Assembly (NCBI GenBank): GCA_964544145.1
Contig: CAZJAT010000003.1
Coordinates: 7,804-71,803, forward strand
DNA from: an uncultured Bacteroidales bacterium
Lineage (GTDB): Bacteria > Hydrothermota > 32-111
Reading direction: 5' to 3'
Length of the DNA stretch: 64,000 bases
Below the pieces are notes generated by a model, which did no database searches, was not told the origin of the DNA, and saw only the letters and a program-made list of their open reading frames with translations. The position numbers were made by a program, and so were the translations under genes. Shown here one piece after another: positions 8,576 through 34,587 of this stretch. Positions within the stretch are counted from its first letter, which is position 1, and the number at the start of each line of letters is the position of its first letter.

Positions 8576-9428
<853 letters not shown>

Positions 9429-14669: not shown

Positions 14670-17600
14670 ATGCTTGATTTTTTTTCAAAAGATCCTGCTA
14701 AGATAATTGAGAAATGCAATAAATTAAGATTAGAGGGCAAATACGATAAAGCTGAGCAAATTCTCAGAAAAAATATCAAAAACACCCCTGATGATTATCT
14801 TTTTCTGCTTGAGTTGGGTAGAGTACAATTTGAACAGGATAAGTTATTTGAATCAGTTGCTTCATTTAAAAGCGCTTATTATCAGAAAGCAGATGCGATA
14901 AATAACATCATTGATGTTGTTGAGGACATTCATTTCAGAAGTGAAAATAAAGAATACACAGGAAAATTACTGATTGAATTATATATTAAGAAAAAAGATT
15001 CAGACAATATTCATAAAATCATTAAGACCATATCCAAAGAAGCAGTCGAACGTATTAACAATGATACGAAGAAAAAGTACCTCACAATTAAAAAGGATAG
15101 ACCCGCATCGGGTCTCACAAAGAAAGATGTAGATATATTCATTATGACGGGTATGCTGGCTATTGTGACAAAGGACTTTGAAACAGCTGAAAATGCTTTT
15201 TCAGCAGTATTTAAGAATAAACCCATTGAGCGAAATTTTATTTTACAGCAATATATGGAAGCGACACAGTATAATTATTCAGAACCGGAACCTTTCATGA
15301 CTATTGGCGACTTTTATATGATAATGGGAGAAAAAGATAAGGCAATCAATTTCTTTCAGAGAGCAATAAAGCTTAATCCGGATCTTAAAGACATTGTTGC
15401 AACAAAACTTGATGAAATAGTCAGCAATACAGACAATCTGTCTGAGACAGGAAAATTCTCAGCTGCTGATGTATACGTGAACAAAGGCGACCTGGCAAAA
15501 GCAGCAATGATATTAAGCAATCTCATTGATGAAGGCATTACAGATGTTGATGGCGTTATTAAAAGGCTTAGGAATATACTTGCTAAGACTAATAATAATA
15601 TTGAAACAACCAGGATTCTCATAAAAGCAGTAATGGTTAAAAAGGATTTTGAGCAGGTTATTATTCTTCTCAATAGAATATTTGAATCAGACAAAATGCA
15701 GACTGATTATATTCTAGGAGTTATAACTCAAATAGAGGAAAATGATTTCAGTTTAACTGACAAGGATATACTCAAAGCAAGGGTGTTTACAGAAATAGAC
15801 AAAACAGAAGATGCTGCGAAAATTCTTAAATCTATTTACGACACAGATAAGGATTCTGCATATGATATAGAGGATACTGTCAATATAATACTGGATAAAG
15901 AGAATCAGAACATAACTGCACTGACATTACTTATGTCAATATTCATTGATAGAGCTCAATTACCGAAAGCAAAAACTCTACTATCATTTACTGACTCGCT
16001 GGAAGACGAGAAATTCAATGAGTTTTCAAGATATCATTATGAGATACTCAATGAAAAATATCCTGATGATCTTGAATTGAAATTACCTCTTGCAATTGCA
16101 TACATTCGGAAAAACAATATAGAAAAAGCATCCAAACTGATTAATTCAATTATTACTGCCGATCCTGACTTATTCTACGAAATTGCCCCTCATCTATTTG
16201 AACCCTCTTCATCAGACACGGAAATTGCAAAGGGAATCCTTCATATTCTGGAATCAGTCGACCATGATAGCATAGACAAATATCTCTATGAATTTACTAT
16301 TGCTGAGGTTGCTTACCTTGCAGGGGATGTCAAACAATCATTGGATAGGGTTCTCAGACTTTTTGAGGAATATCCCGACAATGAAGAGCAATTGATGGGT
16401 ATTATTGACAGGATGTCGCAAAAATACAGTGATAATCAGGAAATAAAAGAATTTGAGTTTAAATTTTATGTAAATAAGAAGGAATACGACAAAGCATTAA
16501 CTGCGGTAATTGCCCTCTCTTCCAATAAAGAGGTAATGGGTCATGTACTTGATGATTTATATTTACTGCACAAGCATGTCCCCGATAATTATGATGTAAT
16601 GATGAATATTCTCAAAGTACTTGATGATATGGGTATGTATGAGAAAATGATTTCAGAAGCAAAAACATTTGTTGAACGCGTACCTCAAGAAAGATCCGGT
16701 TTGGTAAGATTCTATATAGGGAAATCCTATGCAAAGCGCGGTCAGGTAAATGATGCAGCTACATACATATTCCAGGCAATAACTCTGGAAGATACGATAA
16801 TTGAAGAGGCTATTCTGATATTGGTTGATCTACTCAAAATTGATTATTCATCAATAAAATTGCACTATTCGCTGGCTCATGCTTATCAGAAAAATAATGA
16901 TATTGACAAAGCTATTGATGAATTGATGGAGATTTACCGAATTGATGACAAACAGATTGATATAGTGTTGAGGGATCTTGATATTTTTCATGATACAGTA
17001 AAATCCAATCCCAAATTATTATTTGCAATTGGTCAGCTTAAGATGAAGAAAATTGAATATACAGAGGGTGTTGAAAGGCTGATGGAATCGTATCGGTTGG
17101 ATAATTCATATATGGACCCTGTACTCAATCTATTGAAAACAATGCAGGAAACTGAAAACATTGAAAGCGGAGAGATACTCTTCACTATGGGTACATTATA
17201 TGCAGATAAAGGAATGTATAAGATGGCATCTGATCATTTATACAATGCCATGTCCATTGAGACATCATTAAAAGAACAAGTGATAAACAAATTACAGGTT
17301 ATTATTAATAAACAACCGGAAGAAATCTATGCCAGATACTCATTGACACAGGTTTACAGTGATATGCATAATTATATTCAAGCTATACAATTGTTAAGAC
17401 AAATTGAAACAATAAATCCTTCTGAGAGTGAAAACATTATTGAATATTATAATTCAATGCTTGCCATAGAACCGCAGAACACTTCACTGCTTCTCTCTCT
17501 TGGTGATTCTTATCTTAATACAGGGAATGAATCAGCAGGGATGGATATATACAGCAAAGCAATAGCTGCTGATAAAAATCTTCCCGACACTGTCATAGAG

Positions 17601-18440
17601 AAATTGCTGGATTATGACAATAAAACACTTGAGGTTCAATTTTTTCTTTCTGATCTATACAGGGATAAAAGTGATTATGAATCATCTGTCAATTGGCTCA
17701 ACTCTGTATATCTCACTGATATAAATGAACAAGAAAAAATAAAACAGAAATTAAATACAATTCTAAGTCAGTCACCTGAACAACAGAATGCATTAATGCT
17801 TTTATCAAATATTTATTATAATCAAGAAGATTATGACAGTTTGATTAAACTCTCATTTGATATTTTTGAGAAATCCTCTGTTCAAGAGATGAAATTCCGC
17901 TCTGGTATGCTGCTTTCTCAAGCATATAGAAAAATCAGCAAGCAAGACAAAGCGGATGATATTATATCTAAAATGATTAAAGAAAACAGAATGCTCTATT
18001 ACACTGTTCTCATTCAATTCTATGAACAGGAAAAAAGTTCCAGGGTATTCAAATTACGCAAGCACCTTGACAGTGATCCCGAGAACCAAGAATTGATTGT
18101 CGAGTATGCTGCAAATCTTATTGCACAGAATAACTTTGAATCAGCAAAAAATGTTCTTATATTCAAATCTGAGATCGAAGAAATTGAGTATGAGAGAATA
18201 TATCTGCTTTCAAAGATAAGTGAGGCAAACAATAATCTCATTTTCGCCCTGCAGATAGCAACACGATTAAGATATTCAAGTAATATGAAACATATTTCAT
18301 ATTTAATTAAACTGCTTATGAAAATGGGATATCATGGGGAGATTGACAGTATTCTTAAAGAAAACCCGCAATATACAGTATCAATGAATAAATATAATCT
18401 TTCCAAACATGTTTTCGGTGAATATAAGATTTTAACATAA
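14670..18440 (+). CDS. giant tetratricopeptide-repeat (TPR) protein
   Basis: 1256 aa, cytoplasmic, with repeated 34-aa Ala/Tyr/Leu-patterned TPR-like helices throughout. It is preceded by a GGAGG Shine-Dalgarno site. Confidence 0.65.
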   Translation: MLDFFSKDPAKIIEKCNKLRLEGKYDKAEQILRKNIKNTPDDYLFLLELGRVQFEQDKLFESVASFKSAYYQKADAINNIIDVVEDIHFRSENKEYTGKLLIELYIKKKDSDNIHKIIKTISKEAVERINNDTKKKYLTIKKDRPASGLTKKDVDIFIMTGMLAIVTKDFETAENAFSAVFKNKPIERNFILQQYMEATQYNYSEPEPFMTIGDFYMIMGEKDKAINFFQRAIKLNPDLKDIVATKLDEIVSNTDNLSETGKFSAADVYVNKGDLAKAAMILSNLIDEGITDVDGVIKRLRNILAKTNNNIETTRILIKAVMVKKDFEQVIILLNRIFESDKMQTDYILGVITQIEENDFSLTDKDILKARVFTEIDKTEDAAKILKSIYDTDKDSAYDIEDTVNIILDKENQNITALTLLMSIFIDRAQLPKAKTLLSFTDSLEDEKFNEFSRYHYEILNEKYPDDLELKLPLAIAYIRKNNIEKASKLINSIITADPDLFYEIAPHLFEPSSSDTEIAKGILHILESVDHDSIDKYLYEFTIAEVAYLAGDVKQSLDRVLRLFEEYPDNEEQLMGIIDRMSQKYSDNQEIKEFEFKFYVNKKEYDKALTAVIALSSNKEVMGHVLDDLYLLHKHVPDNYDVMMNILKVLDDMGMYEKMISEAKTFVERVPQERSGLVRFYIGKSYAKRGQVNDAATYIFQAITLEDTIIEEAILILVDLLKIDYSSIKLHYSLAHAYQKNNDIDKAIDELMEIYRIDDKQIDIVLRDLDIFHDTVKSNPKLLFAIGQLKMKKIEYTEGVERLMESYRLDNSYMDPVLNLLKTMQETENIESGEILFTMGTLYADKGMYKMASDHLYNAMSIETSLKEQVINKLQVIINKQPEEIYARYSLTQVYSDMHNYIQAIQLLRQIETINPSESENIIEYYNSMLAIEPQNTSLLLSLGDSYLNTGNESAGMDIYSKAIAADKNLPDTVIEKLLDYDNKTLEVQFFLSDLYRDKSDYESSVNWLNSVYLTDINEQEKIKQKLNTILSQSPEQQNALMLLSNIYYNQEDYDSLIKLSFDIFEKSSVQEMKFRSGMLLSQAYRKISKQDKADDIISKMIKENRMLYYTVLIQFYEQEKSSRVFKLRKHLDSDPENQELIVEYAANLIAQNNFESAKNVLIFKSEIEEIEYERIYLLSKISEANNNLIFALQIATRLRYSSNMKHISYLIKLLMKMGYHGEIDSILKENPQYTVSMNKYNLSKHVFGEYKILT

Positions 18441-18452
18441 AAAGGAGTCGTT

Positions 18453-19616
18453 ATGGATAATTCAAATGACAATAAACCCAATGAAAACAACGCTGAAAAT
18501 TCGACTTCACAGAACAGTACTATGAAAATCGAAGAATTAGGTGATATTAAGAAACAGGTTGAGAAAATATCTGAGCAAATGCACAAGAACAGCGAATCAG
18601 CTGATTTTATTCTCAAATCACTTAAAGACATAGAATCCGGTTTGAAAGATAATTATTCTGATTTGAAGAAAGATATTATTGATGATAATATCACAAAAAT
18701 TAAAGAAATTTTAGTTGACGGTAAATACATAAAAATGACTGAGCATGTTGACATGATACAGGAATCAACTGCAAAGATGAAAGAGGATTATAAAGAAATT
18801 CAGATTCATCTGGATGCAATAACGGAGACACTTTCCATACTTCAGGAAACAAATGAACACATAAAGGGTATCAAAGACGGGATCACTGACATATCACATG
18901 ATTTTCAGTCAAAGATTGATGAAATTGATGAGTCCCTTAAGCAGGGCAATGATAAGATGGAGAAAGCAATAACGGAACAGGCAAAAGCATTTGAAAAGGC
19001 ATTGACTGATAACAGGGATTTCTTTGAAAAAGCTATGGAAAATATGAATAAAACATTTGAGAGTATAAAAGATATAGCTGAACAGACAGAAAAAATTTAC
19101 TCATATGAACAGGAACTGTCTGGAATAAGAGGAAAAGAATTCGCTTTGATGCAGTCAAAACAATTAAATGAGAAAGGATTGGTACTGTTCTACAGAGGAG
19201 TATTCTCTGCAGCTTTGGATAATTTCAATAAAGCACTTGAACTTGACCCTCAATCAGCTGAGATACATAATAATATGGGTTATGCTTATCTAAAGAAAAA
19301 AGAGTATGATAAGGCAGAAGAATTATTCAAAAAAGCTATTGATATCTTCCCTGATTTTTCAGAAGCATTCAATAATCTCGGCTTATTGTATATGGATAAC
19401 AATAATTATGAATTGGCGATTGAAAACATTCAGAAAGCTGTATCCCTATTCCCTGATTTTGCAGATGCGTATTATAATCTAGGCAATGCATTTCAATCAT
19501 CAGACAGAATAGATGATGCAATTGATAATTGGTCAAAAGCTATTGAAATAAATCCTTTCCATGAAGAAGCAAAAGAAAAAATAAAACTTTTTAAGAAGGG
19601 AGATGTCAATGTCTGA
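18453..19616 (+). CDS. coiled-coil N-domain / C-terminal TPR-repeat protein
   Basis: 387 aa. The N-terminal 230 aa are E/K/D-rich coiled coil; the C-terminal part has 4 canonical TPRs (NNMGYAYLKKKEYDKAEELFKKAI...). There is a GGAG Shine-Dalgarno site 12 nt after the previous stop. Confidence 0.6.
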   Translation: MDNSNDNKPNENNAENSTSQNSTMKIEELGDIKKQVEKISEQMHKNSESADFILKSLKDIESGLKDNYSDLKKDIIDDNITKIKEILVDGKYIKMTEHVDMIQESTAKMKEDYKEIQIHLDAITETLSILQETNEHIKGIKDGITDISHDFQSKIDEIDESLKQGNDKMEKAITEQAKAFEKALTDNRDFFEKAMENMNKTFESIKDIAEQTEKIYSYEQELSGIRGKEFALMQSKQLNEKGLVLFYRGVFSAALDNFNKALELDPQSAEIHNNMGYAYLKKKEYDKAEELFKKAIDIFPDFSEAFNNLGLLYMDNNNYELAIENIQKAVSLFPDFADAYYNLGNAFQSSDRIDDAIDNWSKAIEINPFHEEAKEKIKLFKKGDVNV

Positions 19617-20130
19617 TGATTTTTTAAAAAAAATATCAAATAAGGAATCTACTGATAAAAACAATCCTTTCAATCAAATTTTTCAAAAAAAAAGAGACAC
19701 TGTAAGAAAAGAAAACCCTGTAATTGAAAAAAAAGAAGCCGGTCTGGATGGTATTGAAAATCTTGGTAAAACAGGCACGCCAGCAGCTGAAGTTGATTTT
19801 GAAACTGATGTTCCTGCAGATAAGATACCCAGTAAAAAAATAGCAGATGAGAATATTCTGGAGACCCAGAATGAGAACATTGATAAATCTACATCTTCAA
19901 TTCCGACGAAAAATCTAGAAAATTCTGATATATTTAAAGACAACACTGATGATGCTGAAGGTAATCTTATAATAAATACAAGTTCTTCTTATAATAACCT
20001 CGATTTCGGTTCAGAGAACAGTAATCAGAATCCTTTTACACAGGATATCATAAACAAAGTCTCTCAAATGCTCAAGGAAAATAAATGGAAAGATGCAGTA
20101 AAACTCATTGAAGGGACTAAAAATGAGTAA
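19603..20130 (+). CDS. hypothetical low-complexity (disordered) protein
   Basis: 175 aa, rich in polar residues (N/S/E/K) with no motif. Its start overlaps the upstream stop and its stop overlaps the pyrR start. Confidence 0.35.
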   Translation: MSMSDDFLKKISNKESTDKNNPFNQIFQKKRDTVRKENPVIEKKEAGLDGIENLGKTGTPAAEVDFETDVPADKIPSKKIADENILETQNENIDKSTSSIPTKNLENSDIFKDNTDDAEGNLIINTSSSYNNLDFGSENSNQNPFTQDIINKVSQMLKENKWKDAVKLIEGTKNE

Positions 20131-20665
20131 AAGGGATTATATACTTGCTGACAGCAAGGCAGTAAATGAGCTAATTGAAAAAATGTCTGAGTTCATTATT
20201 TCCAAAATGAAAACTACTAATGAATCAGTATTAATCGGCATTATCAAAAGAGGCGACATTATTGCGGGTAGGATTAATAATATAATCAGAGAAAAAACAG
20301 GAAAAGATATTCCTGTAGGTAAAATTGATATCAATCTATATAGGGATGATCTGTCTCTTATTGATTATCACCCCACTATTGAGCATACAGATATACCCTT
20401 TGATATCAATGGTAAGAATATTTTCCTTATTGATGATGTCTTCTTCACAGGCAGAACAATCCGAAGTGCATTAAATGAAATCATCGATTTCGGGAGACCC
20501 AGAAAGATTTTATTCTGCACTCTTGTTGACCGGAACAGTCACGAATTACCTATAAAACCTGATTTTGCAGCAATTGATATCAATATACCGAATAAAAACA
20601 ATGTAAATGTAGAATTAAATGAGTGTGACAGTCATGACCGCATCATGATTATTAAGGAGGATTGA
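20108..20665 (+). CDS. pyrR: bifunctional pyrimidine operon regulator / uracil phosphoribosyltransferase PyrR
   Basis: 185 aa with a PRTase motif 'IFLIDDVFFTGRTIRSAL' and a 'GIIKRGDIIAGRI' segment. Confidence 0.85.
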   Translation: MKGLKMSKRDYILADSKAVNELIEKMSEFIISKMKTTNESVLIGIIKRGDIIAGRINNIIREKTGKDIPVGKIDINLYRDDLSLIDYHPTIEHTDIPFDINGKNIFLIDDVFFTGRTIRSALNEIIDFGRPRKILFCTLVDRNSHELPIKPDFAAIDINIPNKNNVNVELNECDSHDRIMIIKED

Positions 20666-21591
20666 TGAAGTGGACTAAAAAACATCTGCTATCAATTGAA
20701 GATCTTTCTGTTAATGAAATCAATATGATTCTGGACAATGCTTTCCCATTTAAAGATGTATTAAACAGACCAATCAAAAAGGTCCCCGCTTTAAGAGGAA
20801 AAACCGTTGTCAACCTCTTTTTTGAACCAAGTACCAGAACACTTATATCCTTCGCACTTGCTGAAAAGCACCTGTCAGCTGATTCAGTTAATGTAAACGC
20901 GAAAAGCTCATCAGTACTTAAGGGTGAAACATTACTTGATACTGCTAAGAATATTGAATCAATGAAGACAGATATGGTTGTTATACGTCATTCATCACCC
21001 GGAGCTGCTCAGTTCCTGGCAGAACGGATAGATTCTAATGTCATAAATGCCGGAGATGGGATTCATGAACATCCGACTCAGTGCTTACTGGATTTGATGA
21101 CTATTCGTGAAAATTTCAAGCAGTTCAAGGGTTTGAATGTTCTTATACTTGGAGATATAATGCATTCAAGAGTAGCAAGATCATTAATGTGGGCTTTCAA
21201 CAAATTGAATATCAATACAACACTCTGTGCCCCACCCACATTAGTACCTATGTATGCTGAAAATTTTAATGTTAAAATTGAGTATGATATTGATAATGCA
21301 ATAAAGAACAAAGATATTATATATATTTTAAGGGTCCAGCTTGAAAGACAGAAAAGCGGACTATTCCCTTCCATTAGGGAATATGTCAAATATTTTTCCC
21401 TTACAGAGGAACGTTTTGATAAAATACGCCATAAAACTGTGATAATGCACCCCGGTCCAATAAACAGAGGAGTTGAAATGGACGGGACTGTAGCAGACAG
21501 TGATAAATCAGTAATACTTGATCAAGTGACAAACGGAGTAGCTGTTCGTATGTCTATTCTCTACCTGCTAAACGGAGGATCAAATGGCTGA
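20662..21591 (+). CDS. pyrB: aspartate carbamoyltransferase catalytic subunit
   Basis: 'FFEPSTRTLISF' (STRTR motif) and 'HEHPTQCLLDLMTI' (HPxQ). 309 aa. Confidence 0.9.
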   Translation: MMKWTKKHLLSIEDLSVNEINMILDNAFPFKDVLNRPIKKVPALRGKTVVNLFFEPSTRTLISFALAEKHLSADSVNVNAKSSSVLKGETLLDTAKNIESMKTDMVVIRHSSPGAAQFLAERIDSNVINAGDGIHEHPTQCLLDLMTIRENFKQFKGLNVLILGDIMHSRVARSLMWAFNKLNINTTLCAPPTLVPMYAENFNVKIEYDIDNAIKNKDIIYILRVQLERQKSGLFPSIREYVKYFSLTEERFDKIRHKTVIMHPGPINRGVEMDGTVADSDKSVILDQVTNGVAVRMSILYLLNGGSNG

Positions 21592-22852
21592 AAATATTTT
21601 ACGTAACTGTACTGTTTATAATCATGATAAAACGTTAAAGAATGTAGATATTACAATCAAAAACGGCAAGATTGCACAAATTCAGAAAGCACAATCAAAG
21701 AAAGGGCTGGATATGACCGGTATGGCAGTTATGCCCGGTTTAATAGATATGCATGTTCATTTCAGAGAACCAGGCGAAGAACACAAAGAAGACATGTTTT
21801 CAGGTATCGTTGCTGCCGTTAAAGGAGGATTTACAGGTGTATGCACAATGCCAAATACAAACCCGCCTATAGATAATCCGCAATCTATCACATATCTTAG
21901 AAATACAGCTTCCAATATTGGAAAATGTGATGTGTTCCCGTTTGGAGCTATTTCAAAAGGATTAGAAGGACATGAAATCACGGAGATGTATGATATGATT
22001 AAGGCAGGAGCATATGGTTTCACTGATGATGGGGCTGGAACAAAAGATGCAAATATTATGGTAAATGCAATTAAATACGCATCCAGATTTGATATTGCAT
22101 TCACCACTCATTGCGAAGACCATGATTTAACAGAAGATGGACAGATAAATGAATCAAAAATATCGCTCGAAACAGGGCTTAAGGGTATTCCCTCTATTGA
22201 TGAAACTACATCTGTATTCAGGAATCTTTCAATTGCTTCCTATCTGAATGCACCAATGCATATAGCACATATTTCACTTGCCGAAACCCTTTCAATAATC
22301 AAGGACTTTAAAAAGAAAAATAATAGAATTACCTGCGAAGTCACTCCACATCATCTTATATTCAATGAACAGATTCATAAGACATTTAATACGAATTATA
22401 AGGTTAAACCGCCATTAAGATCCATTAGAGATAATAAGGCCTTATTGAAAGGAATAATTGACGGGAGTATTGATGTAATTGCTACAGACCACGCTCCGCA
22501 TCAGCTTTATGAAAAGGAAGTTGAATTTATATTTGCTCCATTCGGCATGATAGGTTTGGAAACAGCATTACCATCATTATATTCATATTTTATAAAAACA
22601 AATAAACTCAGTTTCAATCATTTGGCTAAAACAATGGCTTACAAACCATCTAAGATTCTCCATATTGAAGAACATTCTATTAAAGAGGGAAATCAGGCAA
22701 ATATAACAGTATTCAATCCAAATGTTGAAATATCAGTAGACAGGAAATATATCAAGAGCAAATCAATAAATACACCGTTCTGGAACAAAAAGCTGTCAGG
22801 TGCTGTTGAATATACCATATATAAGGGACGAATTGTATATAAGAGGATTTAG
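21584..22852 (+). CDS. pyrC: dihydroorotase (class I)
   Basis: 'GLIDMHVHFREPG' metal-binding motif and 'ATDHAPH'. 422 aa. Confidence 0.85.
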   Translation: MAENILRNCTVYNHDKTLKNVDITIKNGKIAQIQKAQSKKGLDMTGMAVMPGLIDMHVHFREPGEEHKEDMFSGIVAAVKGGFTGVCTMPNTNPPIDNPQSITYLRNTASNIGKCDVFPFGAISKGLEGHEITEMYDMIKAGAYGFTDDGAGTKDANIMVNAIKYASRFDIAFTTHCEDHDLTEDGQINESKISLETGLKGIPSIDETTSVFRNLSIASYLNAPMHIAHISLAETLSIIKDFKKKNNRITCEVTPHHLIFNEQIHKTFNTNYKVKPPLRSIRDNKALLKGIIDGSIDVIATDHAPHQLYEKEVEFIFAPFGMIGLETALPSLYSYFIKTNKLSFNHLAKTMAYKPSKILHIEEHSIKEGNQANITVFNPNVEISVDRKYIKSKSINTPFWNKKLSGAVEYTIYKGRIVYKRI

Positions 22853-25419
22853 TGAAATACGATTTTAATATTAATGACATAGATGATATTCTGAGCCGCG
22901 AATCAAAATATATAAAAGAACTCAAGAATGAATTTGGCAAACAAGATGAATTTTCTTCCAATATCAGACGCATAGTATCAATCGCAAGAAAGCGAAAGAT
23001 TGACCATGATTGTCTGAACCCATTCAGAGAATCAGTTGATACAGGTATAATATATGTAATCATTGGCTATAAAAACTTTGAAATATTATCGTCAATGTTT
23101 CCTCTTTTACTCAGTGATTCAATTGATAAAACAGATTTAAAAAATACTGTCAGGAATATGTATAAAAAAACAGCTGAAACTGATGGTAAATTGACTCTTA
23201 TATTTGAATTAACTGTAATTAAAGCATTTATCAATTATTACAGGGATAATAAAAAAAATAAGAATAACCGGGAATTTCTAAATGCTATAAACACATTGAG
23301 AGACACATTGATTGAAATCCGAAATGAGATATGTTCATATATAGTTTTCAACAGGGATTTTCACAGAAATATCCTGGATAAAGCACTTATAACGCCTCAG
23401 ATTGCATTCAGTGATTCATGGGATTTGCTGAAAGAAAAGGTATCCTCTTACTATTTCCCCTATGAATTATTTGTAGACCTTGTTGCTTTCTACAATACAT
23501 TAGCATCATTAGATAGAGAAATTGAGATCATTAAGTATTTTGAAGAAAAAACAGTATGGTCTATTGATGATATATCATCACCGCCTCATTCATTTTATCT
23601 GCCATACCTGAGGGATGAAGTAAAGAGCATTATTCTTAAAACAATCGCAAAAAAAAGCAAACAAACAAGGGAATATTTGATTAAGGAAGAGAATGATCTT
23701 AATGCACAGATAAACAGTATTAAAAAAAGCATTAATGATGATTTAAAGGAATTTGACACTGCATTTATTCAAGAACTCTCAGCATCGCTTCACTACCCTG
23801 CTAATATAAATCTGATAAGCAATATCAATTCCTACATTATAGATTTCAACAGAAAGACAATGGGCAATATTATAATGGCAAATAAAATATTGGAAAGATT
23901 CAGCATGCTTAAGAAAAAATTTATTAAAAATGAGCAAATGCGCAATATCACATATGATCAGTTGATGTCCATATTCAAAAAACAAGGTTTCATTGAAAAC
24001 TCTGATATATTCCTTTCAATTGCCGCTTATAGCGATTATCAGAAACATTTTGATGATTTGTTTGAAAAGAATAAAAAATATGTGTTAAAAATAACTAAAA
24101 CATCGTTTAATAAAATGAAGGGAATGTATAAGGAAAACAGCAGTAAAGATATAGAAGAACAGCTGCTTCTAATGAAAAACATTCTGACTTCAAAAACATT
24201 TTCAACAAAATTCAACTATGATTTTGTACGCGATAATTTTCGTGATATAATGAGTTCAATTGAAAATGATATCATTGTATTTCTTCTGCTTAATAATATC
24301 CGTGTCTTCAATATGGAATATTCACAAACACGTGTGAAAGAGAAAAAAGAATATTTTTATATCAATAATTACCTGATTCCACATGGCAAACTTTATTATT
24401 TTGACGGTAAAATACCATGTTCCCGCACAAAACTGAATATCCGTGAAGACAATATCAACACTATTGGCCAAATCTTAAAAAAACATTATTCAAAGGTTGT
24501 ATCATCCTTAGTTTATGATATCAGAGGTTCTTCATTTATGAGTGATAAATTGAATAATGCAGAAAAACAGGTTTATATAATGAGAAAATACCAAGGTATA
24601 ATTAACAATATCATTAAGGTCAATAATGGCTTCCCTATTAAAGAAACCGGCGATGGCGGGATTTCTCTGTTTTTCAGTAAAAGTAAGGAATTATACAGGA
24701 ATCTTTATAAAGAAACAATGTCATCAAGAAATGTGCATATAAGACACTCAATTGCAACCGGTGCGAACCTCAGCCTGAAGGAAGCAGAGTCATCTGCTTC
24801 AGAAGCTATGGATTGCTCAATTAAACTCATAGATGCAACAGAAAAATTCATTAAAGATAATTACATTAATTACAGAGAATGGTTTTTTGATGTACATGAG
24901 AGAAAAGTCATACATGAAGGAATAGAATATGCATTGCTTCCCCCTGAATTCAAATCACTTTTCCGAATTGGAATAGGTATATCATCGGGCATAATCAATA
25001 AAGATTTAAGTCTCAATGTTAATGCATATGGAGATGTGGATGTCTATGGCTCATCAATAAATGAAGCAAAAAATTTTTCAGAAGGTAAAGATCCTTCAAA
25101 ATCAGTAATAATGATTGATCATATCACATTATTCAATCTTATACTCAATAAAGAGTTTTTTATTGATGATATTGATATTGAGAGAGATGATTTTATGAAG
25201 AATTTCCTTAATCTACTTAAAAATGAATCAACACTTACATTGAAACATATTGGAAATTTTGAGATTAATTTACTTGGGACTTATTCAAAATCAAAAAAGG
25301 ATAAGTCAAAGAGAATGCTCTTTGACTCAATCCCTTCTGATTTACAAATTGACGAAAATGGGATTTTGTATTCAGCAAATGAGCCTATTAAACTCATCTA
25401 CCAAATTACATTGAAATAA
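22852..25419 (+). CDS. large uncharacterised protein with C-terminal divergent class-III nucleotidyl cyclase homology domain (CHD)
   Basis: 855 aa with a GTG start overlapping the pyrC TAG stop by 1 nt. The C-terminal ~250 aa carry ordered CHD-like motifs: 'LVYDIRGSSF' (F.DI.GFT-like), 'ETGDGGISLFF' (IGD-like), 'FRIGIGISSGII' (RIGIHTG-like) and 'DVYGSSINEAKNF' (GD.VN.A.R-like). The N-terminal ~550 aa have no recognisable domain. Confidence 0.5.
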   Translation: MKYDFNINDIDDILSRESKYIKELKNEFGKQDEFSSNIRRIVSIARKRKIDHDCLNPFRESVDTGIIYVIIGYKNFEILSSMFPLLLSDSIDKTDLKNTVRNMYKKTAETDGKLTLIFELTVIKAFINYYRDNKKNKNNREFLNAINTLRDTLIEIRNEICSYIVFNRDFHRNILDKALITPQIAFSDSWDLLKEKVSSYYFPYELFVDLVAFYNTLASLDREIEIIKYFEEKTVWSIDDISSPPHSFYLPYLRDEVKSIILKTIAKKSKQTREYLIKEENDLNAQINSIKKSINDDLKEFDTAFIQELSASLHYPANINLISNINSYIIDFNRKTMGNIIMANKILERFSMLKKKFIKNEQMRNITYDQLMSIFKKQGFIENSDIFLSIAAYSDYQKHFDDLFEKNKKYVLKITKTSFNKMKGMYKENSSKDIEEQLLLMKNILTSKTFSTKFNYDFVRDNFRDIMSSIENDIIVFLLLNNIRVFNMEYSQTRVKEKKEYFYINNYLIPHGKLYYFDGKIPCSRTKLNIREDNINTIGQILKKHYSKVVSSLVYDIRGSSFMSDKLNNAEKQVYIMRKYQGIINNIIKVNNGFPIKETGDGGISLFFSKSKELYRNLYKETMSSRNVHIRHSIATGANLSLKEAESSASEAMDCSIKLIDATEKFIKDNYINYREWFFDVHERKVIHEGIEYALLPPEFKSLFRIGIGISSGIINKDLSLNVNAYGDVDVYGSSINEAKNFSEGKDPSKSVIMIDHITLFNLILNKEFFIDDIDIERDDFMKNFLNLLKNESTLTLKHIGNFEINLLGTYSKSKKDKSKRMLFDSIPSDLQIDENGILYSANEPIKLIYQITLK

Positions 25420-25626
25420 TTATTTTCCCTTTTTCTGATACTTTTTAATAAACTTATCAACCCTTCCGGCTGTATCAACAAATTTCTGTTTACCGGTAAA
25501 GAAAGGATGACATTTTGAGCAGATTTCAACCTTTATAAGAGGCTTGGTTGCTTTTGTCTTTATTTCATTACCGCAGGCACATTGAATTGTTGCGTCAACA
25601 TAATTAGGGTGTATTCCTTTTTTCAT
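25420..25626 (-). CDS. rpmE: 50S ribosomal protein L31
   Basis: 68 aa with 'MKKGIHPNY' and 'CxCG...[10 protein letters not shown]'. Confidence 0.9.
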
Positions 25627-25637
25627 TTTTCCTCCTG

Positions 25638-26897
25638 TTACTGCGACATCATGTTTAGAAATTCTTTATTTGTTTTCGTTGTTTCCATTCTGTTTATGAG
25701 AAATTCCATTGCTTCTACAGGGTTCATTTCACTAAGCAGCTTTCTCAATACCCATACACGTGATAGCTCGTTTTCTGAAAGCAATAAATTCTCTTTTCTA
25801 GTACCTGACTTATTAACATCCATTGCCGGGAAAATCCTGCGGTCAGCAAGACGCCTATCTAACACTAACTCCATATTACCTGTACCTTTGAATTCTTCAA
25901 AAATCACTTCATCCATTCTGGAACCGGTTTCAATAAGAGCAGTCGCTATGATTGTCAGTGAACCACCATTTTCAATATTTCGTGCAGCTCCAAAGAATCT
26001 CTTCGGTTTATGCAGTGCATTTGAATCAACACCGCCTGAAAGAGTCCTGCCGCTATGCGGAGTAACCACATTATAAGCCCTTGCTAATCTAGTAATGGAA
26101 TCAAGTAAAATAACCACATCCTTCTTCTGTTCAACCAGACGTTTAGCTCTCTCAATTACGATACTTGCCACCTGAACATGTCTGTCAGCAGGCTCATCAA
26201 ATGTAGAGGATATAACTTCTCCTTTAACTGACCGCTCCATATCTGTTACCTCTTCAGGTCTTTCGTCAATAAGGAGCACTATAAGCATTATCTCCGGATG
26301 ATTAATTGAGATGGCATTTGCTATCTTCTGAAGCAAAATTGTCTTACCTGCTCTTGGAGGAGATACGATAAGAGATCTCTGTCCCTTTCCAATAGGTGAC
26401 AGAAGATTCATCACTCTCAGTGATATGTCTTTTTCATCAATTTCCAAATCTATTTTCTCTTCTGGATATAAAGGTGTCAGATTATCAAAGAGAATTTTCT
26501 TTATTGCATCCTGATATTCCACATAATTGATCTTTTCAATTTTGATTAAGGCAAAATACTTCTCATTATCCTTTGGGGGACGAATATGTCCTGATATTGT
26601 ATCACCTGTTTCCAAACCAAACCTCTTAATTTGAGAAGGAGATACATAAATATCCATTGGACCCGGCAAATATGAATATTCAGGCTGCCTAAGAAATCCA
26701 AATCCCTCTTTTGATATTTCAAGAACACCTTCTCCAAAAATATCACCATTCTTTTCAGCCTGTTTCTCCAAAACTCTGAATATCAGGTCCTGTTTTCTCA
26801 GTGTATTGATATTATCCACTTTTAATTCTTTTGCCATTACTACTAGTTCATCAAAACTTTTTTTCTTCAAATCCTCAATTTTCATACTGTACTTCAC
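25638..26897 (-). CDS. rho: transcription termination factor Rho
   Basis: An N-terminal RNA-binding region, Walker A '[10 protein letters not shown]', the Q- and R-loops, and a C-terminal 'EFLNMM' segment. Confidence 0.9.
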
Positions 26898-26948: not shown

Positions 26949-28721
26949 TCAAGTATTAGCAATATCCTGCTCTGAATTCTTCAATTTATCTGATTGTGCA
27001 TCAATCTCCTGCACATTGGATAAAATCTCTTGCATTGATGCACTCTGCTCTTCAATTGAAGCTGCAATTTCCTCAGTATTTGTTGATGTGCGTGTTGAGA
27101 GATCTGATATCTCCGAAATTTTATTTATATAGGATTCAATTGATCCCATCTGTTCATGAGAGGCATTGGATATTTCTTTAATCATATTAACTGTAAGCGT
27201 TATTGCTTTTGATATCTGCTCGAACTGATCTTTTGTTTCATTCATAAGCAGTTTACCATCATTAACATTTTTATGCTGGGATACAATAAGTCCCACTGTC
27301 ATTTCAATGTCATCCCTTATCTCCTTGATTAGAGATGCAATTCTCTTTGTTGACTGTGATGATTGTTCTGCCAATTCTCTGATTTCTTCAGCTACAACGG
27401 TAAATCCCTTACCATACTCGCCCACACGTGCTGCTTCAATTGCCGCATTCAATGCAAGCAAATCCGTCTGCTCTGATATTTTTGTAATTATATCCAGTAT
27501 CTCGTTTATTTGATCCGAACGCTGTTGCAGCATTTCTATCTTCTGTTTAGTTTTGTCCACATTAGTTACAATTAAATCATAATTCTTTATAGTTTCAAAC
27601 ACTTTATCCAATCCTTCACTTGATGCATTATTTGCCTTCTTTGAAGCTGTCTGAGACATATTAACCTTTGATGTGACACTTTCGGAAAGACTTTTAATCT
27701 TGCTTATCTCATTGTGTGCCCCTTGAACCATCTCATTCTGGGCATTCATATCAATTGAAATATTTTGAATAGTTGCAGATACCTCTTCAGAGGAAGCTGT
27801 GATTTGTTCACCTGTTGCTGCAAGTTGACCGGTTAATGAGCTGAGTTCCTCACTGAGATTCATCATCAGATTGAGTAATGAGATAATACGGTTGAGAAGT
27901 CCATTAAAACTTGAAGTCATTATGCCCACTTCATCAGATGTAGTAACTGCCAGAGCATCCAGTTCTCTGATATTGCCTAATTGCATTTTCAGCAGATAAT
28001 CATTCATAATTTCAATTGGTTTCACAACAGTCAGAGAAAGTACAATAGTCAATGCAATATTTACTGTTATAAGAATTAAATACAGAAAAATGTTATTGCT
28101 AATCATAAAATTGCAGTAAATTGTAAAAAACATTATAAAATTGATTGTCAGAATAAATTTCCATTTCAATTTTATCTGCCTGATTTTACCTTTTATACTT
28201 TCCATCTCCTTACCTGTAAATTTATACCTATGTAATTGTCTGAAAAATACCATCTGCGTGAGGTAAAAATTAACCATTCCCATGAATATAGCAATAATAA
28301 ACGAATCAGCCATAGCAATAGCAAATGATTTTATTGCAAAACCCTGAATAACCAAAATTAAACCAAGCACAATTGGTGCTATAGAAAAATGCAAGAACAT
28401 ATGTAATGCTGAAGCATATGGACTATTCATCATAAAGAGATATTCTTTTAATTTAATATCCGTTATGTCTTTTCTGTTGACATATTTACGGAATCTATAT
28501 CTCTGGAAAATATCATACTCAACCGCAAGTGCTGGACCTACAATCGCACCGAATATAATAATACTCCTCATATAACCTTCTGCCACTTCAACCGTTGCAG
28601 GGATAAGAAGCAACAGAAGCGGAAGCCCTATGAATAGAGCCGGTAAATTCGTCAATGTAGCAAATAGATTGATATATTTTTTCATAAACACCTCATGTTT
28701 CTTCAATGATTCCTTTTTCAA
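26949..28721 (-). CDS. methyl-accepting chemotaxis protein
   Basis: Two TM helices plus HAMP, and a highly conserved signalling hairpin '[34 protein letters not shown]'. Confidence 0.85.
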
Positions 28722-30176: not shown

Positions 30177-31781
30177 TTATTCAATTGTTCTTACAATGTG
30201 CGGGGAGATAAAGATTAATACTTCTTTTGATCTGACAATGGTTTCATCACTCTTAAACAGATGCCCTATAATGGGTATTGATCTTAGAAGAGGAAAACCT
30301 GTCTGTGTTCTTGTTTCCTGATCAAGAACAAATCCACCCATTACTACTGTTTCTCCGTCCTGCACCATTTGAACTGTTTTTGCATTTGTTGTATTTATTG
30401 TAGGTCTTAAACTGGTAGGATCCTGAACTGTTGAAAGTTCTGCTTCAATATCCAATGTGATATCCTTCATTGAGTTAACATGTGGTGTTACATTGAGTAT
30501 GGTTCCAACTGTATACTGTGTATTAACAATATTTCCATTTGCATCAACACTCTGTACAAAGAACTGCTGACCTCCAAGGATATTTGCTTCAGTATTATTT
30601 GTTGCAGTTATACGGGGATTAGACAAAGTTTTTGATTTACCTGAAATCTCCATTGTCTGCAATACAGCATCTATCTGGGCAAAATTTCTTATAGTACCTA
30701 TGCTGACTTCTCCTGATGTGACAGAAACAGGTGTATTAACACCGATGCCGCCTATAACATTTGCCTGGCTCAGACCTATATTGTTTATAGTCCAGTCAAT
30801 ACCCAGACTTCTTGTGATATCATCATTAATCTCAACCACTTTAACTACAATCTCTACCTGAAGATTCTTCTTATCTATCTCGGCAATAATATTCTGAATC
30901 TTTTTATGAACATCATTAATATCCTTCACAACCATTGAATTCGTTCTTTCATCAATAGTTATTACACCTCTTTTAGAGAGTACCGGTTTTAATGAAGCCT
31001 GCATATCTCTGGGAGTTGCATATTCAAGCTTGTACACCTTTGTTAAAAGGGGTAATGATTCCTGCATAGCTGTTTGTTCTGTTGCAAATTCTTTGTAAGT
31101 ACCTACTCTAATCATATTCGGAAATTCTTCATAGGTAAGACCTGCCATTCTGGTTATCAAATCAAACAAATCCTTCCATGGTACATCTTTCACATGAATA
31201 GTCACATTACCTGATACATTATTGGACATTACAAGGTTAATGCCGATATAATCCGCAATACCTCTAAGTAATGTTACAACATCAGCGTTTTCTACATCCA
31301 TTGTAATATTATAATCAGTTTTGAATGTACTGATGTTCTGATCATTTTCTTTTGATGAAGCTGAATGATCTGAAGCAAGCCATGAATCAAATGAACCAGC
31401 TAATGAATTATCCAGCGAAATAACGATATTGTTGCCCTGATATGATTTATTGTATGCATATCTATCACTCAATTCAATCATTATGCGCAGAAAATTTGAT
31501 TCATTATCCTTCATTATTTCTATTGATTTGATTCCTGTTACAGCATCCATTTCATAATACGAACCTGTCAGACCATTGTCTACTGCAATGAGGTCAAACA
31601 CTATGATATCAGGTGCTGTTATGGAAAAATCAGTAAAATTAATGACTTTGTCCATTTCGAGTATTATTTCAGTCTTATTATCTCCTGTAGGAGATACTTT
31701 TATGTCCTGTAGAAGCCCTAATGCTGAAACACTGCTGAATAAAACTATGAGCGTGAGGACAAAGAGTGTTTTCTTTAACAT
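30177..31781 (-). CDS. pilQ: type IV pilus secretin PilQ
   Basis: 534 aa with a signal peptide, N-terminal secretin_N-like domains and a C-terminal secretin domain ('VVMGGFVLDQETRTQTGFPLLRSIPIIGHLFKS...IFISPHIV'). Confidence 0.85.
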   Translation of the reverse strand: MLKKTLFVLTLIVLFSSVSALGLLQDIKVSPTGDNKTEIILEMDKVINFTDFSITAPDIIVFDLIAVDNGLTGSYYEMDAVTGIKSIEIMKDNESNFLRIMIELSDRYAYNKSYQGNNIVISLDNSLAGSFDSWLASDHSASSKENDQNISTFKTDYNITMDVENADVVTLLRGIADYIGINLVMSNNVSGNVTIHVKDVPWKDLFDLITRMAGLTYEEFPNMIRVGTYKEFATEQTAMQESLPLLTKVYKLEYATPRDMQASLKPVLSKRGVITIDERTNSMVVKDINDVHKKIQNIIAEIDKKNLQVEIVVKVVEINDDITRSLGIDWTINNIGLSQANVIGGIGVNTPVSVTSGEVSIGTIRNFAQIDAVLQTMEISGKSKTLSNPRITATNNTEANILGGQQFFVQSVDANGNIVNTQYTVGTILNVTPHVNSMKDITLDIEAELSTVQDPTSLRPTINTTNAKTVQMVQDGETVVMGGFVLDQETRTQTGFPLLRSIPIIGHLFKSDETIVRSKEVLIFISPHIVRTIE

Positions 31782-31799
31782 TTATAACCTCGCTTTTAA

Positions 31800-32944: not shown

Positions 32945-32953
32945 TACCCCCGA

Positions 32954-33535: not shown

Positions 33536-33549
33536 TTTTAACCTCTTTG

Positions 33550-34575: not shown

Positions 34576-34587
34576 ATAACCGTCCTT

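What the first reader, a model, noticed from the sequence alone, without database searches (positions are those of the whole stretch)
22852..25419. 855-aa protein whose C-terminus looks like a divergent class-III nucleotidyl cyclase (CHD), translationally coupled to pyrR-pyrB-pyrC
The C-terminus carries four ordered CHD-like motifs (YDIRGSS; TGDGG; FRIGIGISSGII; DVYGSSINEAKNF) with an approximately 100-aa insertion between the metal-binding and substrate-binding halves. The N-terminal ~550 aa have no recognisable domain. The gene starts with GTG overlapping the pyrC stop (taGTGaaa), so it is co-expressed with the pyrimidine biosynthesis operon. A cyclase of unknown specificity that is hard-wired to pyrimidine nucleotide supply is reminiscent of pyrimidine-cyclase (cCMP/cUMP) signalling. 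No effector gene is adjacent: rpmE and rho follow on the other strand.
Basis: inference. Interest (0 to 1): 0.65.

Follow-up and report, generated by a model that had tools for sequence, protein, structure and literature searches.

The report
Divergent nucleotide cyclase ending a pyrimidine operon
The 855-aa gene encodes an undescribed, strongly diverged relative of bacterial adenylyl/guanylyl cyclases, fused to a large helical domain of unknown fold and co-transcribed with pyrimidine-synthesis genes; in most relatives it sits directly before a cAMP-type GAF-diguanylate cyclase, which suggests a cAMP to c-di-GMP signalling relay rather than a cCMP/cUMP system.

Summary
The ORF at 22852-25419 is real. 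Its GTG start overlaps the pyrC stop (TAGTG) and follows an AAGAGGA ribosome-binding site, and all four motifs are present.

The C-terminus is a true but very divergent class III cyclase homology domain:
- Pfam, NCBIfam and PADLOC give no hit.
- A family profile reaches bona fide PF00211 proteins (E 1e-5 over 1.8 billion proteins) and PDB cyclases (CyaB, E 3.6e-4).
- hhalign against true cyclase domains gives 97.4% probability (E 1.3e-11).
- The top 50 Foldseek hits of the AF2 model are all class III cyclases.

Both metal-binding Asp (D556, D601) and an adenylyl-type Lys/Asp pair (K597, D730) are invariant in 106 relatives. The canonical transition-state Arg is missing. Family-specific basic residues (R631, R675, K701, R705) may replace it.

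The N-terminal 530 aa fold confidently (pLDDT 89.5) into an all-helical domain with no PDB relative.

The family is confined to WOR-3, TA06, Cloacimonadota and related candidate phyla. Across 80 species loci:
- pyrR-pyrB-pyrC precedes the gene in 32.
- An Lcd1-like cAMP-type GAF-GGDEF gene directly follows it in 56, though not in this window.

The cCMP/cUMP idea is not supported. Verdict: a new variant of a known kind, of moderate interest.

The parts
22852..25419 (+). Gene X: 855-aa two-domain protein (stop codon included)
   Evidence: ORF list and translation. 11 close homologues at 46-79% identity align end to end.
22841..22854 (+). AAGAGGA Shine-Dalgarno-like site, pyrC stop TAG and GTG start sharing one base (TAGTG)
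   Evidence: Sequence read directly. Equivalent overlaps or short gaps occur in relatives.
22852..24441 (+). N-terminal all-alpha domain (aa 1-530) with a long helical hairpin (H255-312 and H320-364); fold without a known relative
   Evidence: AF2 pLDDT 89.5, pTM 0.81. Foldseek against PDB finds nothing below E 0.03, TM <= 0.31. No credible Pfam hit: two chance-level matches far below the curated cut-offs (HerA_C 15.0 bits vs 22; DUF7342 15.6 vs 31.6).
24472..25416 (+). C-terminal divergent class III cyclase homology domain (aa about 541-855; core aligned to canonical domains about 541-778)
   Evidence: hhalign 97.4%. Top 50 Foldseek PDB hits are all class III cyclases. HMM hits to PF00211 proteins and PDB cyclases.
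24514..24534 (+). beta1 motif YDIRGSS; D556 = first metal-binding Asp
   Evidence: Aligned to the D of FTDIKGST / DIRGFT in true cyclases. D556 is conserved in 106/106 relatives.
24640..24660 (+). beta2-beta3 hairpin KETGDGG; K597 = base-specifying Lys, D601 = second metal-binding Asp
   Evidence: Aligned to VKTMGDG / DKFVGD. Both residues are conserved in 106/106 relatives.
24673..24789 (+). Insert 1 (aa 608-646) between beta3 and alpha3, carrying R631-H-S633
   Evidence: Gap in the hhalign alignment. R631 and S633 are conserved in (nearly) all 80 single, pyr-linked and X2 members (R631 80/80, S633 79/80), and the insert is deleted in X1 paralogues. Low AF2 confidence here.
24862..24963 (+). 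Insert 2 and lead-in to beta4 (aa 671-704): YINYREWFF ... LLPPEFKSLF, with R675 and K701
   Evidence: Gap in the hhalign alignment. Y674, W677, F678, P697 and P698 are >= 95% conserved. R675 and K/R701 are invariant except in X1 paralogues.
24961..24990 (+). beta4 motif FRIGIGISSG; R705 = Arg of the canonical RIGIH motif
   Evidence: hhalign mapping. R in all members except Q in the 26 X1 paralogues and K in 2.
25021..25095 (+). beta5-alpha4 segment NAYGDVDVYGSSINEAKNFSEGKDP; D730 = base-specifying Asp, N737 = ribose/transition-state Asn, N741 at the canonical Arg position, K740 and K746 nearby
   Evidence: hhalign mapping to DIYGDAVNVASRFE. D730 is 106/106, N737 is variable, and [KR]746 is about 98%. 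AF2 confidence is low in this stretch.
20108..22852 (+). pyrR (20108-20665), pyrB (20662-21591) and pyrC (21584-22852), each overlapping the next
   Evidence: Pfam. NCBIfam PyrR NF003549 170.8 bits against a cut-off of 138; dihydroorotase TIGR00857 423.9 against 279.
14670..20130 (+). Upstream co-directional genes of the same tightly packed cluster: 1256-aa TPR protein, 387-aa TPR protein, 175-aa protein (gaps <= 12 nt)
   Evidence: ORF coordinates. Pfam TPR hits. Conserved in close relatives only.
25420..26897 (-). Convergent rpmE (25420-25626) and rho (25638-26897); they occupy the position that the GAF-GGDEF gene has in most relatives

Best explanation
Gene X encodes a cytoplasmic signalling enzyme with two domains.

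**Shown.** Residues about 541-855 are a highly diverged class III nucleotidyl cyclase homology domain. Residues 1-530 are an all-helical domain with no detectable relative.

**Inferred: catalysis.**
- Like other class III cyclases that carry all catalytic residues in one chain, the protein should work as a head-to-tail homodimer with two active sites at the interface.
- D556 and D601 would bind two divalent metals.
- K597 and D730 would select adenine, so the most likely reaction is ATP -> 3',5'-cAMP + PPi.
- N737 would contact the ribose.
- The canonical transition-state Arg is absent. Its role and the phosphate contacts are probably taken by the family-specific basic residues R631 (insert 1), R675, K701 and R705.
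- The helical N-terminal domain is the presumed dimerisation and regulatory module. Its ligand is unknown.

**Shown and inferred: expression.** The gene is the last cistron of a gap-free seven-gene cluster ending pyrR-pyrB-pyrC-X. The protein is therefore presumably made together with the first enzymes of pyrimidine synthesis.

**Inferred from relatives: downstream signalling.** The cyclic nucleotide is read by an Lcd1-like cAMP-type GAF-GGDEF diguanylate cyclase, which links this signal to c-di-GMP. In this window's lineage that partner gene is not adjacent and was not found in the 64 kb.
For: **Homology to class III cyclase domains**
- The profile search over 1.84 billion proteins reaches two PF00211 proteins at E 1.0-1.5e-5.
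- The wider family profile hits the PDB cyclases CyaB, Cya2, Ma1120 and Rv1900c first.
- hhalign against true cyclase domains gives 97.4%, E 1.3e-11; against GGDEF it gives 0.8%.
- All 50 top Foldseek hits are class III cyclases, best E 4.7e-6.

**Active-site conservation**
- D556, K597, D601, D730 and the surrounding Gly residues are invariant in 106 sequences from 80 species.
- R631, R675, K/R701 and R705 are (near-)invariant in the 80 single, pyr-linked and X2 copies (R705 is K in 2). They are lost together only in the X1 copy of tandem pairs, which keeps the metal and base residues. That is the pattern expected for an asymmetric heterodimer with one degenerate site.

**Context**
- The gene overlaps the pyrC stop.
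- The pyr linkage is found in 32/80 loci, including members at 28-40% identity whose other neighbours differ.
- A GAF-GGDEF gene follows immediately downstream in 56/80 loci.
- The best PDB match of its GAF domain is the Lcd1 GAF (5W10, E 9e-29), followed by the cNMP-binding GAF domains of PDE5, PDE2, CyaB2 and PDE10.
- Lcd1 is a diguanylate cyclase activated by cAMP through its GAF domain (PMC8846402).

**Established knowledge.** The Lys/Asp pair marks ATP specificity in class III cyclases.
Against: - No enzymatic data exist for any member of the family.
- The canonical transition-state Arg aligns to N741, which is hydrophobic in most relatives. The Asn is not conserved family-wide (N 32, D 14, R 26, S/A 28, H/G 6 of 106).
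- The AF2 model of the cyclase domain is only moderate (pLDDT 62). It is poor exactly over inserts 1 and 2 and over the beta5-alpha4 segment, so the assignments of D730 and N737 rest on the profile alignment alone.
- The Pfam PF00211 model itself does not match.
- In this window's clade the GAF-GGDEF partner is missing from the locus and from the 64 kb, so the relay is extrapolated from relatives.
- No PyrR-binding RNA or leader was found, so pyrimidine-responsive control of expression is not shown.
- The ligand of the N-terminal domain is unknown.
Confidence: 0.55

Rival explanations
1. Catalytically dead pseudo-cyclase. The domain only binds a nucleotide, or merely dimerises, and acts as a regulatory or scaffold subunit, for instance for the pyrimidine enzymes or for the GAF-GGDEF protein.
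For: - The canonical Arg is missing and the Asn varies across the family.
- Two large inserts interrupt the fold.
- The Pfam model does not match.
Against: - Both metal-binding Asp, the Lys/Asp pair and the glycine-rich loops are invariant over 106 sequences that are otherwise only 30-40% identical. Pseudo-enzymes usually lose these residues first.
- Ma1120, deposited and named in the PDB as an adenylyl cyclase, also lacks the Asn at the canonical position: DDLFGRNVAMAAR.
- Only the X1 paralogue shows coordinated loss of basic residues, which implies that the other copies keep them for function.
Confidence: 0.2
2. Pyrimidine cyclase. The enzyme would make cCMP or cUMP from the pyrimidine nucleotides whose synthesis it is co-expressed with.
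For: - Operon linkage to pyrR-pyrB-pyrC in 32/80 loci.
- A uridine-kinase-family gene lies two genes downstream in 19 loci.
- PycC enzymes share the same fold (PMC11224242).
Against: - The base-specifying positions are Lys and Asp, as in adenylyl cyclases. Characterised PycC enzymes use other residues: F100/R142/Q144 in EaPycC and Y50/D94/R97 in BcPycC.
- No PADLOC PycC model matches, even at E <= 1, whereas an ordinary cyclase domain matches eight of them.
- There is no CNB-TIR or TM effector, and the distribution is vertical and housekeeping-like.
- The conserved neighbour is a GAF domain closest to cAMP/cGMP-binding GAFs.
Confidence: 0.07
3. An active enzyme with another product: cGMP, a promiscuous set of cNMPs, or a non-cyclising nucleotidyl transfer.
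For: - The unusual active-site periphery (R631, R675 and K701; no canonical Arg; variable 737/740) leaves the chemistry open.
- The partner GAF domain is about equally similar to cGMP-binding PDE GAFs and to cAMP-binding Lcd1/CyaB2 GAFs.
Against: - The Lys/Asp pair is invariant. Guanylyl cyclases carry Glu plus Cys, Ser or Gly at these positions; for example Cya2 has E where this family has K.
- The best GAF match is the cAMP-dependent Lcd1.
Confidence: 0.12
4. The pyr linkage is inherited gene order with no functional meaning. X is simply a signalling gene parked at the end of an operon.
For: - 48 of 80 loci lack pyr genes.
- On the rough tree the linkage maps to one part of the family and could be a single ancestral event.
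- No PyrR RNA element was found.
Against: - Start/stop overlaps or gaps of at most 21 nt are kept in 27 of the 32 linked loci (gaps -34 to +21 nt; a 28th abuts with a 91-nt gap), although the X proteins have diverged to 28-40% identity and the flanks differ.
- In 19 loci the X-GGDEF pair is bracketed by pyrimidine genes on both sides, pyrRBC upstream and a uridine-kinase-family gene downstream.
Confidence: 0.35

Closest known systems
Class III adenylyl/guanylyl cyclase catalytic domain (Pfam PF00211), e.g. P. aeruginosa CyaB (3R5G), Spirulina CyaC (1WC1), M. avium Ma1120 (4WP9)
   Same: - Same fold.
- Same order of the beta1 DIxG, beta2-3 KxxGD, beta4 RIG and beta5-alpha4 DxxGxxxN motifs.
- Two metal-binding Asp and an adenylyl-type Lys/Asp pair.
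   Different: - Below the detection limit of the Pfam model.
- Two family-specific inserts of about 39 and about 25-30 aa.
- The canonical transition-state Arg is absent.
- Extra conserved basic residues R631, R675 and K701.
- A 530-aa N-terminal domain not seen with other cyclases.
Pycsar pyrimidine cyclases (PycC)
   Same: Class III-type fold with two catalytic Asp (PMC11224242).
   Different: - No PycC HMM match.
- Different specificity residues.
- No adjacent cyclic-pyrimidine receptor or effector.
- Not in a defence context.
Leptospira Lcd1 and the cAMP -> GAF -> GGDEF relay (also cAMP-activated Tlr0485 and Bd1971)
   Same: In 56/80 related loci the next gene is a GAF-GGDEF protein whose GAF domain is most similar to the Lcd1 GAF (5W10). 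This fits a cyclase-to-diguanylate-cyclase relay.
   Different: - In these relatives the presumed cyclase and the GAF-GGDEF gene are translationally coupled neighbours.
- The relay is inferred, not tested.
- The partner gene is absent from this window.
Heterodimeric class III cyclases (mammalian AC C1/C2, soluble guanylyl cyclase alpha/beta)
   Same: In 28/80 related loci the family occurs as a coupled paralogue pair X1-X2 in which one copy has lost a set of active-site basic residues.
   Different: - The window protein is single-copy and keeps every conserved residue, so a homodimer is expected.
- X1 keeps both metal-binding Asp, unlike C2 or sGC alpha/beta complementarity.
E. coli DgcQ: coupling of c-di-GMP synthesis to the pyrimidine pathway (N-carbamoyl-aspartate)
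   Same: A precedent that pyrimidine-pathway status feeds into c-di-GMP signalling (PMC8956108, citing Rossi et al. 2017).
   Different: - No sequence relationship.
- In this locus the link is genomic only (operon structure), and the sensing step is hypothetical.

Membership tests
Class III nucleotidyl cyclase homology domain (PF00211 superfamily) | beta-alpha-beta-beta-alpha-beta palm-like cyclase fold | tested here: met
   AF2 model (pTM 0.70, pLDDT 62). All 50 top Foldseek PDB hits are class III cyclases, 43 of them with E <= 1e-3, and TM normalised to the target is 0.5-0.63.
Class III nucleotidyl cyclase homology domain (PF00211 superfamily) | Match to the curated Pfam model PF00211 at its gathering score | tested here: not met
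   No PF00211 hit even at E <= 1 for the window protein or for ten relatives.
Class III nucleotidyl cyclase homology domain (PF00211 superfamily) | Significant profile-level sequence homology to bona fide members | tested here: met
   hhalign 97.4%, E 1.3e-11, 158 columns. hmmsearch hits to PF00211 proteins at E 1e-5 over 1.84 billion proteins. PDB CyaB at E 3.6e-4. GGDEF control 0.8%.
Class III nucleotidyl cyclase homology domain (PF00211 superfamily) | Two metal-binding aspartates (beta1 and the beta2-beta3 hairpin) | tested here: met
   D556 and D601 align to the canonical Asp residues and are conserved in 106/106 relatives.
Class III nucleotidyl cyclase homology domain (PF00211 superfamily) | Base-specifying pair (Lys/Asp for ATP; Glu/Cys-type for GTP) | tested here: met
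   K597 and D730 sit at the aligned positions and are invariant. This is the adenylyl type.
Class III nucleotidyl cyclase homology domain (PF00211 superfamily) | Transition-state Asn in alpha4 | tested here: inconclusive
   N737 is present in the window protein. Across the family the position is N, D, R, S or A. The named PDB adenylyl cyclase Ma1120 also lacks it at this position.
Class III nucleotidyl cyclase homology domain (PF00211 superfamily) | Transition-state Arg four residues after the Asn | tested here: not met
   The aligned residue is N741, which is L, I or F in most relatives. K740, K746 and R631 are possible substitutes; this is inference only.
Class III nucleotidyl cyclase homology domain (PF00211 superfamily) | Dimeric enzyme that converts NTP to 3',5'-cNMP + PPi | not testable with these tools
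   Requires biochemistry or multimer modelling.
Pycsar pyrimidine cyclase (PycC) | Match to PycC profile models | tested here: not met
   PADLOC returns 0 families at E <= 1 for the full protein and for the C-terminal domain. The control cyclase domain P0056 matches 8 PycC models, down to 6.6e-13.
Pycsar pyrimidine cyclase (PycC) | Adjacent effector with a cyclic-pyrimidine-binding domain (PycTIR or PycTM) | tested here: not met
   The neighbours here are pyrC, rpmE and rho. In relatives the neighbour is a GAF-GGDEF gene.
Pycsar pyrimidine cyclase (PycC) | Pyrimidine-selecting residues in place of the Lys/Asp pair | tested here: not met
   K597 and D730 are retained. The PycC specificity residues reported in PMC11224242 differ.
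GGDEF diguanylate cyclase | Profile similarity and a GG[DE]EF active-site motif | tested here: not met
   hhalign against a GGDEF profile gives Prob 0.8%. No Pfam GGDEF hit. The motif here is TGDGG.

The most novel reading that the evidence does not exclude
The 530-aa helical N-terminal domain would be a new kind of intracellular sensor that reads the state of the pyrimidine pathway, for example N-carbamoyl-aspartate, dihydroorotate or UMP/UTP, or direct contact with PyrB/PyrC. It would gate an atypical class III cyclase that uses insert-borne arginines instead of the canonical transition-state Arg. The family would then be a dedicated 'pyrimidine status -> cAMP -> c-di-GMP' relay in WOR-3, TA06 and Cloacimonadota-type bacteria.
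Probability: 0.15. Interest if true: 0.75.

Novelty: new variant of a known kind. Interest (0 to 1): 0.55.

Why it matters
- **An unannotated cyclase clade.** It would add a deeply diverged clade to the class III cyclases that current annotation misses: Pfam, NCBIfam and PADLOC give no match, and all database copies are 'hypothetical protein'.
- **First second-messenger enzymes for these phyla.** Largely uncultured phyla (WOR-3, TA06, Cloacimonadota, Edwardsbacteria, Stahlbacteria) would gain their first candidate second-messenger synthases.
- **A testable signalling relay.** The recurrent gene order pyrR-pyrB-pyrC / cyclase / cAMP-type GAF-diguanylate cyclase / uridine-kinase-like is a concrete genomic hypothesis for how nucleotide metabolism is wired to cAMP and c-di-GMP signalling.
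- **Active-site variation.** The missing canonical Arg and the co-varying insert residues R631, R675, K701 and R705, together with natural X1/X2 pairs, offer a test of how much the class III active site can be rebuilt.
- **A new fold candidate.** The N-terminal domain is a confident model with no structural relative.

Tried and rejected
- **Direct database scans of the protein found nothing.** This covers Pfam, NCBIfam, PADLOC and PDB phmmer. The narrow 11-sequence profile against PDB gave only chance topoisomerase hits. The cyclase signal appeared only with wider profiles.
- **A second word-indexed homologue search** with the 49-sequence alignment returned no new relatives.
- **PyrR attenuator RNA.** None was found at the Rfam gathering score over the whole window, nor at E <= 1 over 13500-23000.
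- **Promoter and terminator scans** were at background level.
- **GAF-GGDEF partner in the window.** tblastn and a profile hmmsearch over all ORFs found none.
- **GGDEF-like reading of the TGDGG motif.** Rejected by the hhalign control.
- **Literature.** Searches found no description of this family.

Full report
**1. The observation**

The ORF at 22852-25419 (+) encodes 855 aa. The pyrC stop TAG (22850-22852) and the GTG start (22852-22854) share one base, and AAGAGGA lies at 22841-22847. Eleven homologues of 46-79% identity align from residue 1 to the end, which confirms the start.

The neighbours are as stated:
- pyrR, pyrB and pyrC lie upstream, each overlapping the next (Pfam; NCBIfam PyrR and dihydroorotase above their cut-offs).
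- rpmE (25420-25626) and rho lie convergently downstream.

X is in fact the last of seven co-directional genes (14670-25419) with gaps of at most 12 nt.

**2. Is the C-terminus a cyclase domain?**

Direct scans fail. Pfam, NCBIfam, PADLOC and PDB phmmer give nothing. Four independent lines then agree.

(a) An HMM of the family, searched against 1.84 billion representative proteins, finds 49 proteins. Most of them are family members or fragments of them, and two (P0056, P0058) are reached at E 1.0-1.5e-5 over the beta1-beta3 region. Both of those match Pfam PF00211 at 1e-23 and 4e-19.

(b) A 60-sequence profile of the domain places P. aeruginosa CyaB first in the PDB (E 3.6e-4). Other cyclases (a phytochrome-cyclase fusion, Cya2, Ma1120 and Rv1900c) make up most of the remaining matches.

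(c) hhalign of that profile against four true cyclase domains gives 97.4% probability, E 1.3e-11 over 158 columns, from beta1 to alpha5. The same profile against a GGDEF profile gives 0.8%.

(d) The AF2 model of residues 530-855 (pLDDT 62, pTM 0.70) retrieves only class III cyclases among its top 50 Foldseek PDB hits. The best is E 4.7e-6, and 43 hits have E <= 1e-3.

The model is weak over the inserts and over beta5-alpha4. The fold assignment is therefore solid, but atomic detail there is not.

**3. Residue mapping**

| Window residue | Canonical equivalent |
|---|---|
| D556 | first metal-binding Asp |
| K597 | base-specifying Lys |
| D601 | second metal-binding Asp |
| R705 | Arg of the RIGIH motif |
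| D730 | base-specifying Asp |
| N737 | transition-state Asn |
| N741 | position of the canonical transition-state Arg (Arg absent) |

- a 39-aa insert (608-646);
- a 25-30-aa insert (about 672-700);
- four extra residues in the beta4-beta5 hairpin.

**4. The family**

A scan of one genome per GTDB species found 150 relatives, and 80 loci were retrieved. All are MAGs labelled candidate division WOR-3, TA06, Cloacimonadota, Edwardsbacteria, Stahlbacteria or UBP2, or carrying unassigned labels (bacterium, uncultured bacterium; one Acetofilamentum sp.). The closest locus (67% identity) is labelled WOR-3.

In 106 domain sequences from these loci:
- Y555-D556-I-R-G-S, K597, G600-D601-G-G, G707, G709, N724, D730, G733, S751 and D756 are invariant.
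- N737 is variable (N 32, D 14, R 26, S/A 28, H/G 6).
- [KR]746 is about 98% conserved and K847 about 94%.

The inserts are not junk. R631 and R675 are invariant and S633, K/R701 and R705 near-invariant in the 80 single-copy, pyr-linked and X2 sequences (S633 is L in 1; R705 is K in 2).

In 28 loci the gene occurs as a translationally coupled pair X1-X2. X1 forms its own clade. It keeps both Asp, K597 and D730, but has jointly lost insert 1 (with R631 and S633), R675, K701 and R705, and it swaps N737/K740 for R737/N740. This is what an asymmetric heterodimer with one degenerate site looks like. It argues that the lost basic residues are functional active-site elements in the other copies, including the window protein, which has all of them.

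**5. The N-terminal domain**

Residues 1-530 gave a confident AF2 model with a 32-sequence alignment (pLDDT 89.5, pTM 0.81). It is all-helical, with a 58 + 45-residue helical hairpin. Foldseek against the PDB found nothing better than E 0.03 and TM 0.31, and those hits are generic long-helix proteins. Pfam gives only two chance-level matches far below their cut-offs.

This domain evolves much faster than the cyclase domain: 13-17% identity between clades, against 30-42% for the cyclase domain. Its role as a dimerisation or sensor module is inference.

**6. Genomic context across relatives**

Three recurrent arrangements appear in the 80 loci.

*pyrR-pyrB-pyrC upstream.* Present in 32 of 80 loci. 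In 28 the X ORF abuts pyrC, with a gap of -34 to +91 nt. In three loci a PmbA/TldD gene intervenes. A 30%-identical member with otherwise different neighbours (L004) keeps the arrangement.

*GAF-GGDEF downstream.* This is the strongest association and is not visible in the window. In 56 of 80 loci, across all subgroups, the next gene on the same strand starts within -58 to +4 nt of the end of X (one locus +91). It encodes a (weak REC)-GAF-GGDEF protein (GGDEF 1.5e-41, GAF 2.6e-19) with an intact RYGGDEY motif in 48 of 56.
- The best PDB match of its GAF domain is 5W10 (E 9e-29), the GAF domain of Leptospira Lcd1 (identity of the entry from PMC11800159).
- Next come the cNMP-binding GAF domains of PDE5, PDE2, CyaB2, PDE10 and PDE6. 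GAF domains that bind other ligands score only 1e-10 or worse.
- Lcd1 is a diguanylate cyclase activated by cAMP binding to its GAF domain (PMC8846402).

*Uridine-kinase-like gene.* In 19 loci, mostly pyr-linked, a PRK/uridine-kinase-family gene follows the GGDEF gene. The order is then pyrR-pyrB-pyrC-X-GAF/GGDEF-udk-like.

The window's own clade (the 12 nearest GTDB species, plus L001-L003) has rpmE-rho at that position instead (L004/L005, one step further out, have a glycosyltransferase gene there). No GAF-GGDEF homologue exists anywhere in the 64 kb.

**7. Mechanism**

*Shown:*
- homology to class III cyclases;
- strict conservation of the metal-binding and base-binding residues;
- operon position;
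- the conserved partner in relatives.

*Inferred:*
- a homodimeric enzyme making cAMP from ATP, based on the Lys/Asp pair (established knowledge for class III cyclases) and on the Lcd1-like partner;
- R631, R675, K701 and R705 replacing the missing Arg;
- the N-terminal domain as regulator;
- co-expression with pyrimidine synthesis.

No PyrR-binding RNA or leader is detectable. Whether expression responds to pyrimidines is therefore open. A precedent for pyrimidine-pathway input into c-di-GMP signalling exists in E. coli DgcQ (PMC8956108), but it is only an analogy.

**8.

Nothing specific supports it:
- The specificity residues are of the adenylyl type and differ from those reported for PycC enzymes (PMC11224242).
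- No PycC model matches, while a generic cyclase-domain control does.
- No Pycsar-type effector is adjacent.
- The family is vertically inherited in a housekeeping context.

The idea cannot be excluded without an assay; I give it about 7%.

**9. Novelty and verdict**

No curated model or paper covers the family, and database copies are 'hypothetical protein'. It is a new, strongly diverged variant of a known enzyme kind, with three distinguishing traits:
- an unassigned N-terminal fold;
- a rebuilt active-site periphery;
- a notable conserved wiring to a cAMP-type GAF-diguanylate cyclase and, in one large subclade, to pyrimidine genes.

Interest is 0.55: a real and useful find for second-messenger and candidate-phyla biology, but not categorically new, and entirely unsupported by experiment so far.

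Noticed in passing
related loci L034, L038, L044, L055-L085 (e.g. L055:6315-8891 and 8891-11155): In 28 of 80 species the family occurs as translationally coupled tandem paralogues X1-X2. X1 has lost insert 1 and R631, R675, K701 and R705, but keeps both metal-binding Asp and the Lys/Asp pair. This suggests an asymmetric heterodimeric cyclase.
   Followed up: partly
related loci, e.g. L056:9040-10611 and L056:10592-12160: An Lcd1-like (REC)-GAF-GGDEF gene directly follows X in 56/80 loci. A PRK/uridine-kinase-family gene follows that in 19 loci, so the signalling pair is bracketed by pyrimidine genes.
   Followed up: partly
window 14670-20130 (+): pyrR has no leader of its own. It overlaps an upstream 175-aa ORF that follows two TPR proteins (1256 and 387 aa). 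Seven genes run from 14670 to 25419 with gaps of at most 12 nt, and no PyrR-binding RNA is detectable. The usual PyrR attenuation mechanism therefore has no obvious target in this cluster.
   Followed up: partly
window 25302-25329 (-): A terminator-like hairpin with a T-run on the minus strand lies inside the 3' end of gene X, just downstream of the convergent rpmE. The rho-rpmE transcript would terminate within the X coding sequence.
   Followed up: no
window 3660-5798 (-): A 7TM receptor with an intracellular HD hydrolase domain (7TMR-HDED, 7TM-7TMR_HD and HD). From my own knowledge this architecture is that of PgpH-type cyclic-dinucleotide phosphodiesterases. It is another nucleotide-signalling gene in the window.
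   Followed up: no
window 34918-39900 (-): A NuoF-like flavoprotein (596 aa) lies next to a 1064-aa fusion of 2Fe-2S, GltD-like pyridine-nucleotide oxidoreductase and molybdopterin-Fe4S4 domains. The region has a higher G+C content (0.38-0.39 against about 0.33).
   Followed up: no
window 26949-28721 (-) and 30177-34587 (-): A methyl-accepting chemotaxis protein lies next to rho. A type IV pilus block follows, with a secretin (30177-31781) and PilM (33553-34587). This gene order is conserved in L002.
   Followed up: no
window 60990-62852 (-): A carbamoyltransferase (Carbam_trans_N/C, NodU/CmcH type), unrelated to the pyr genes.
   Followed up: no
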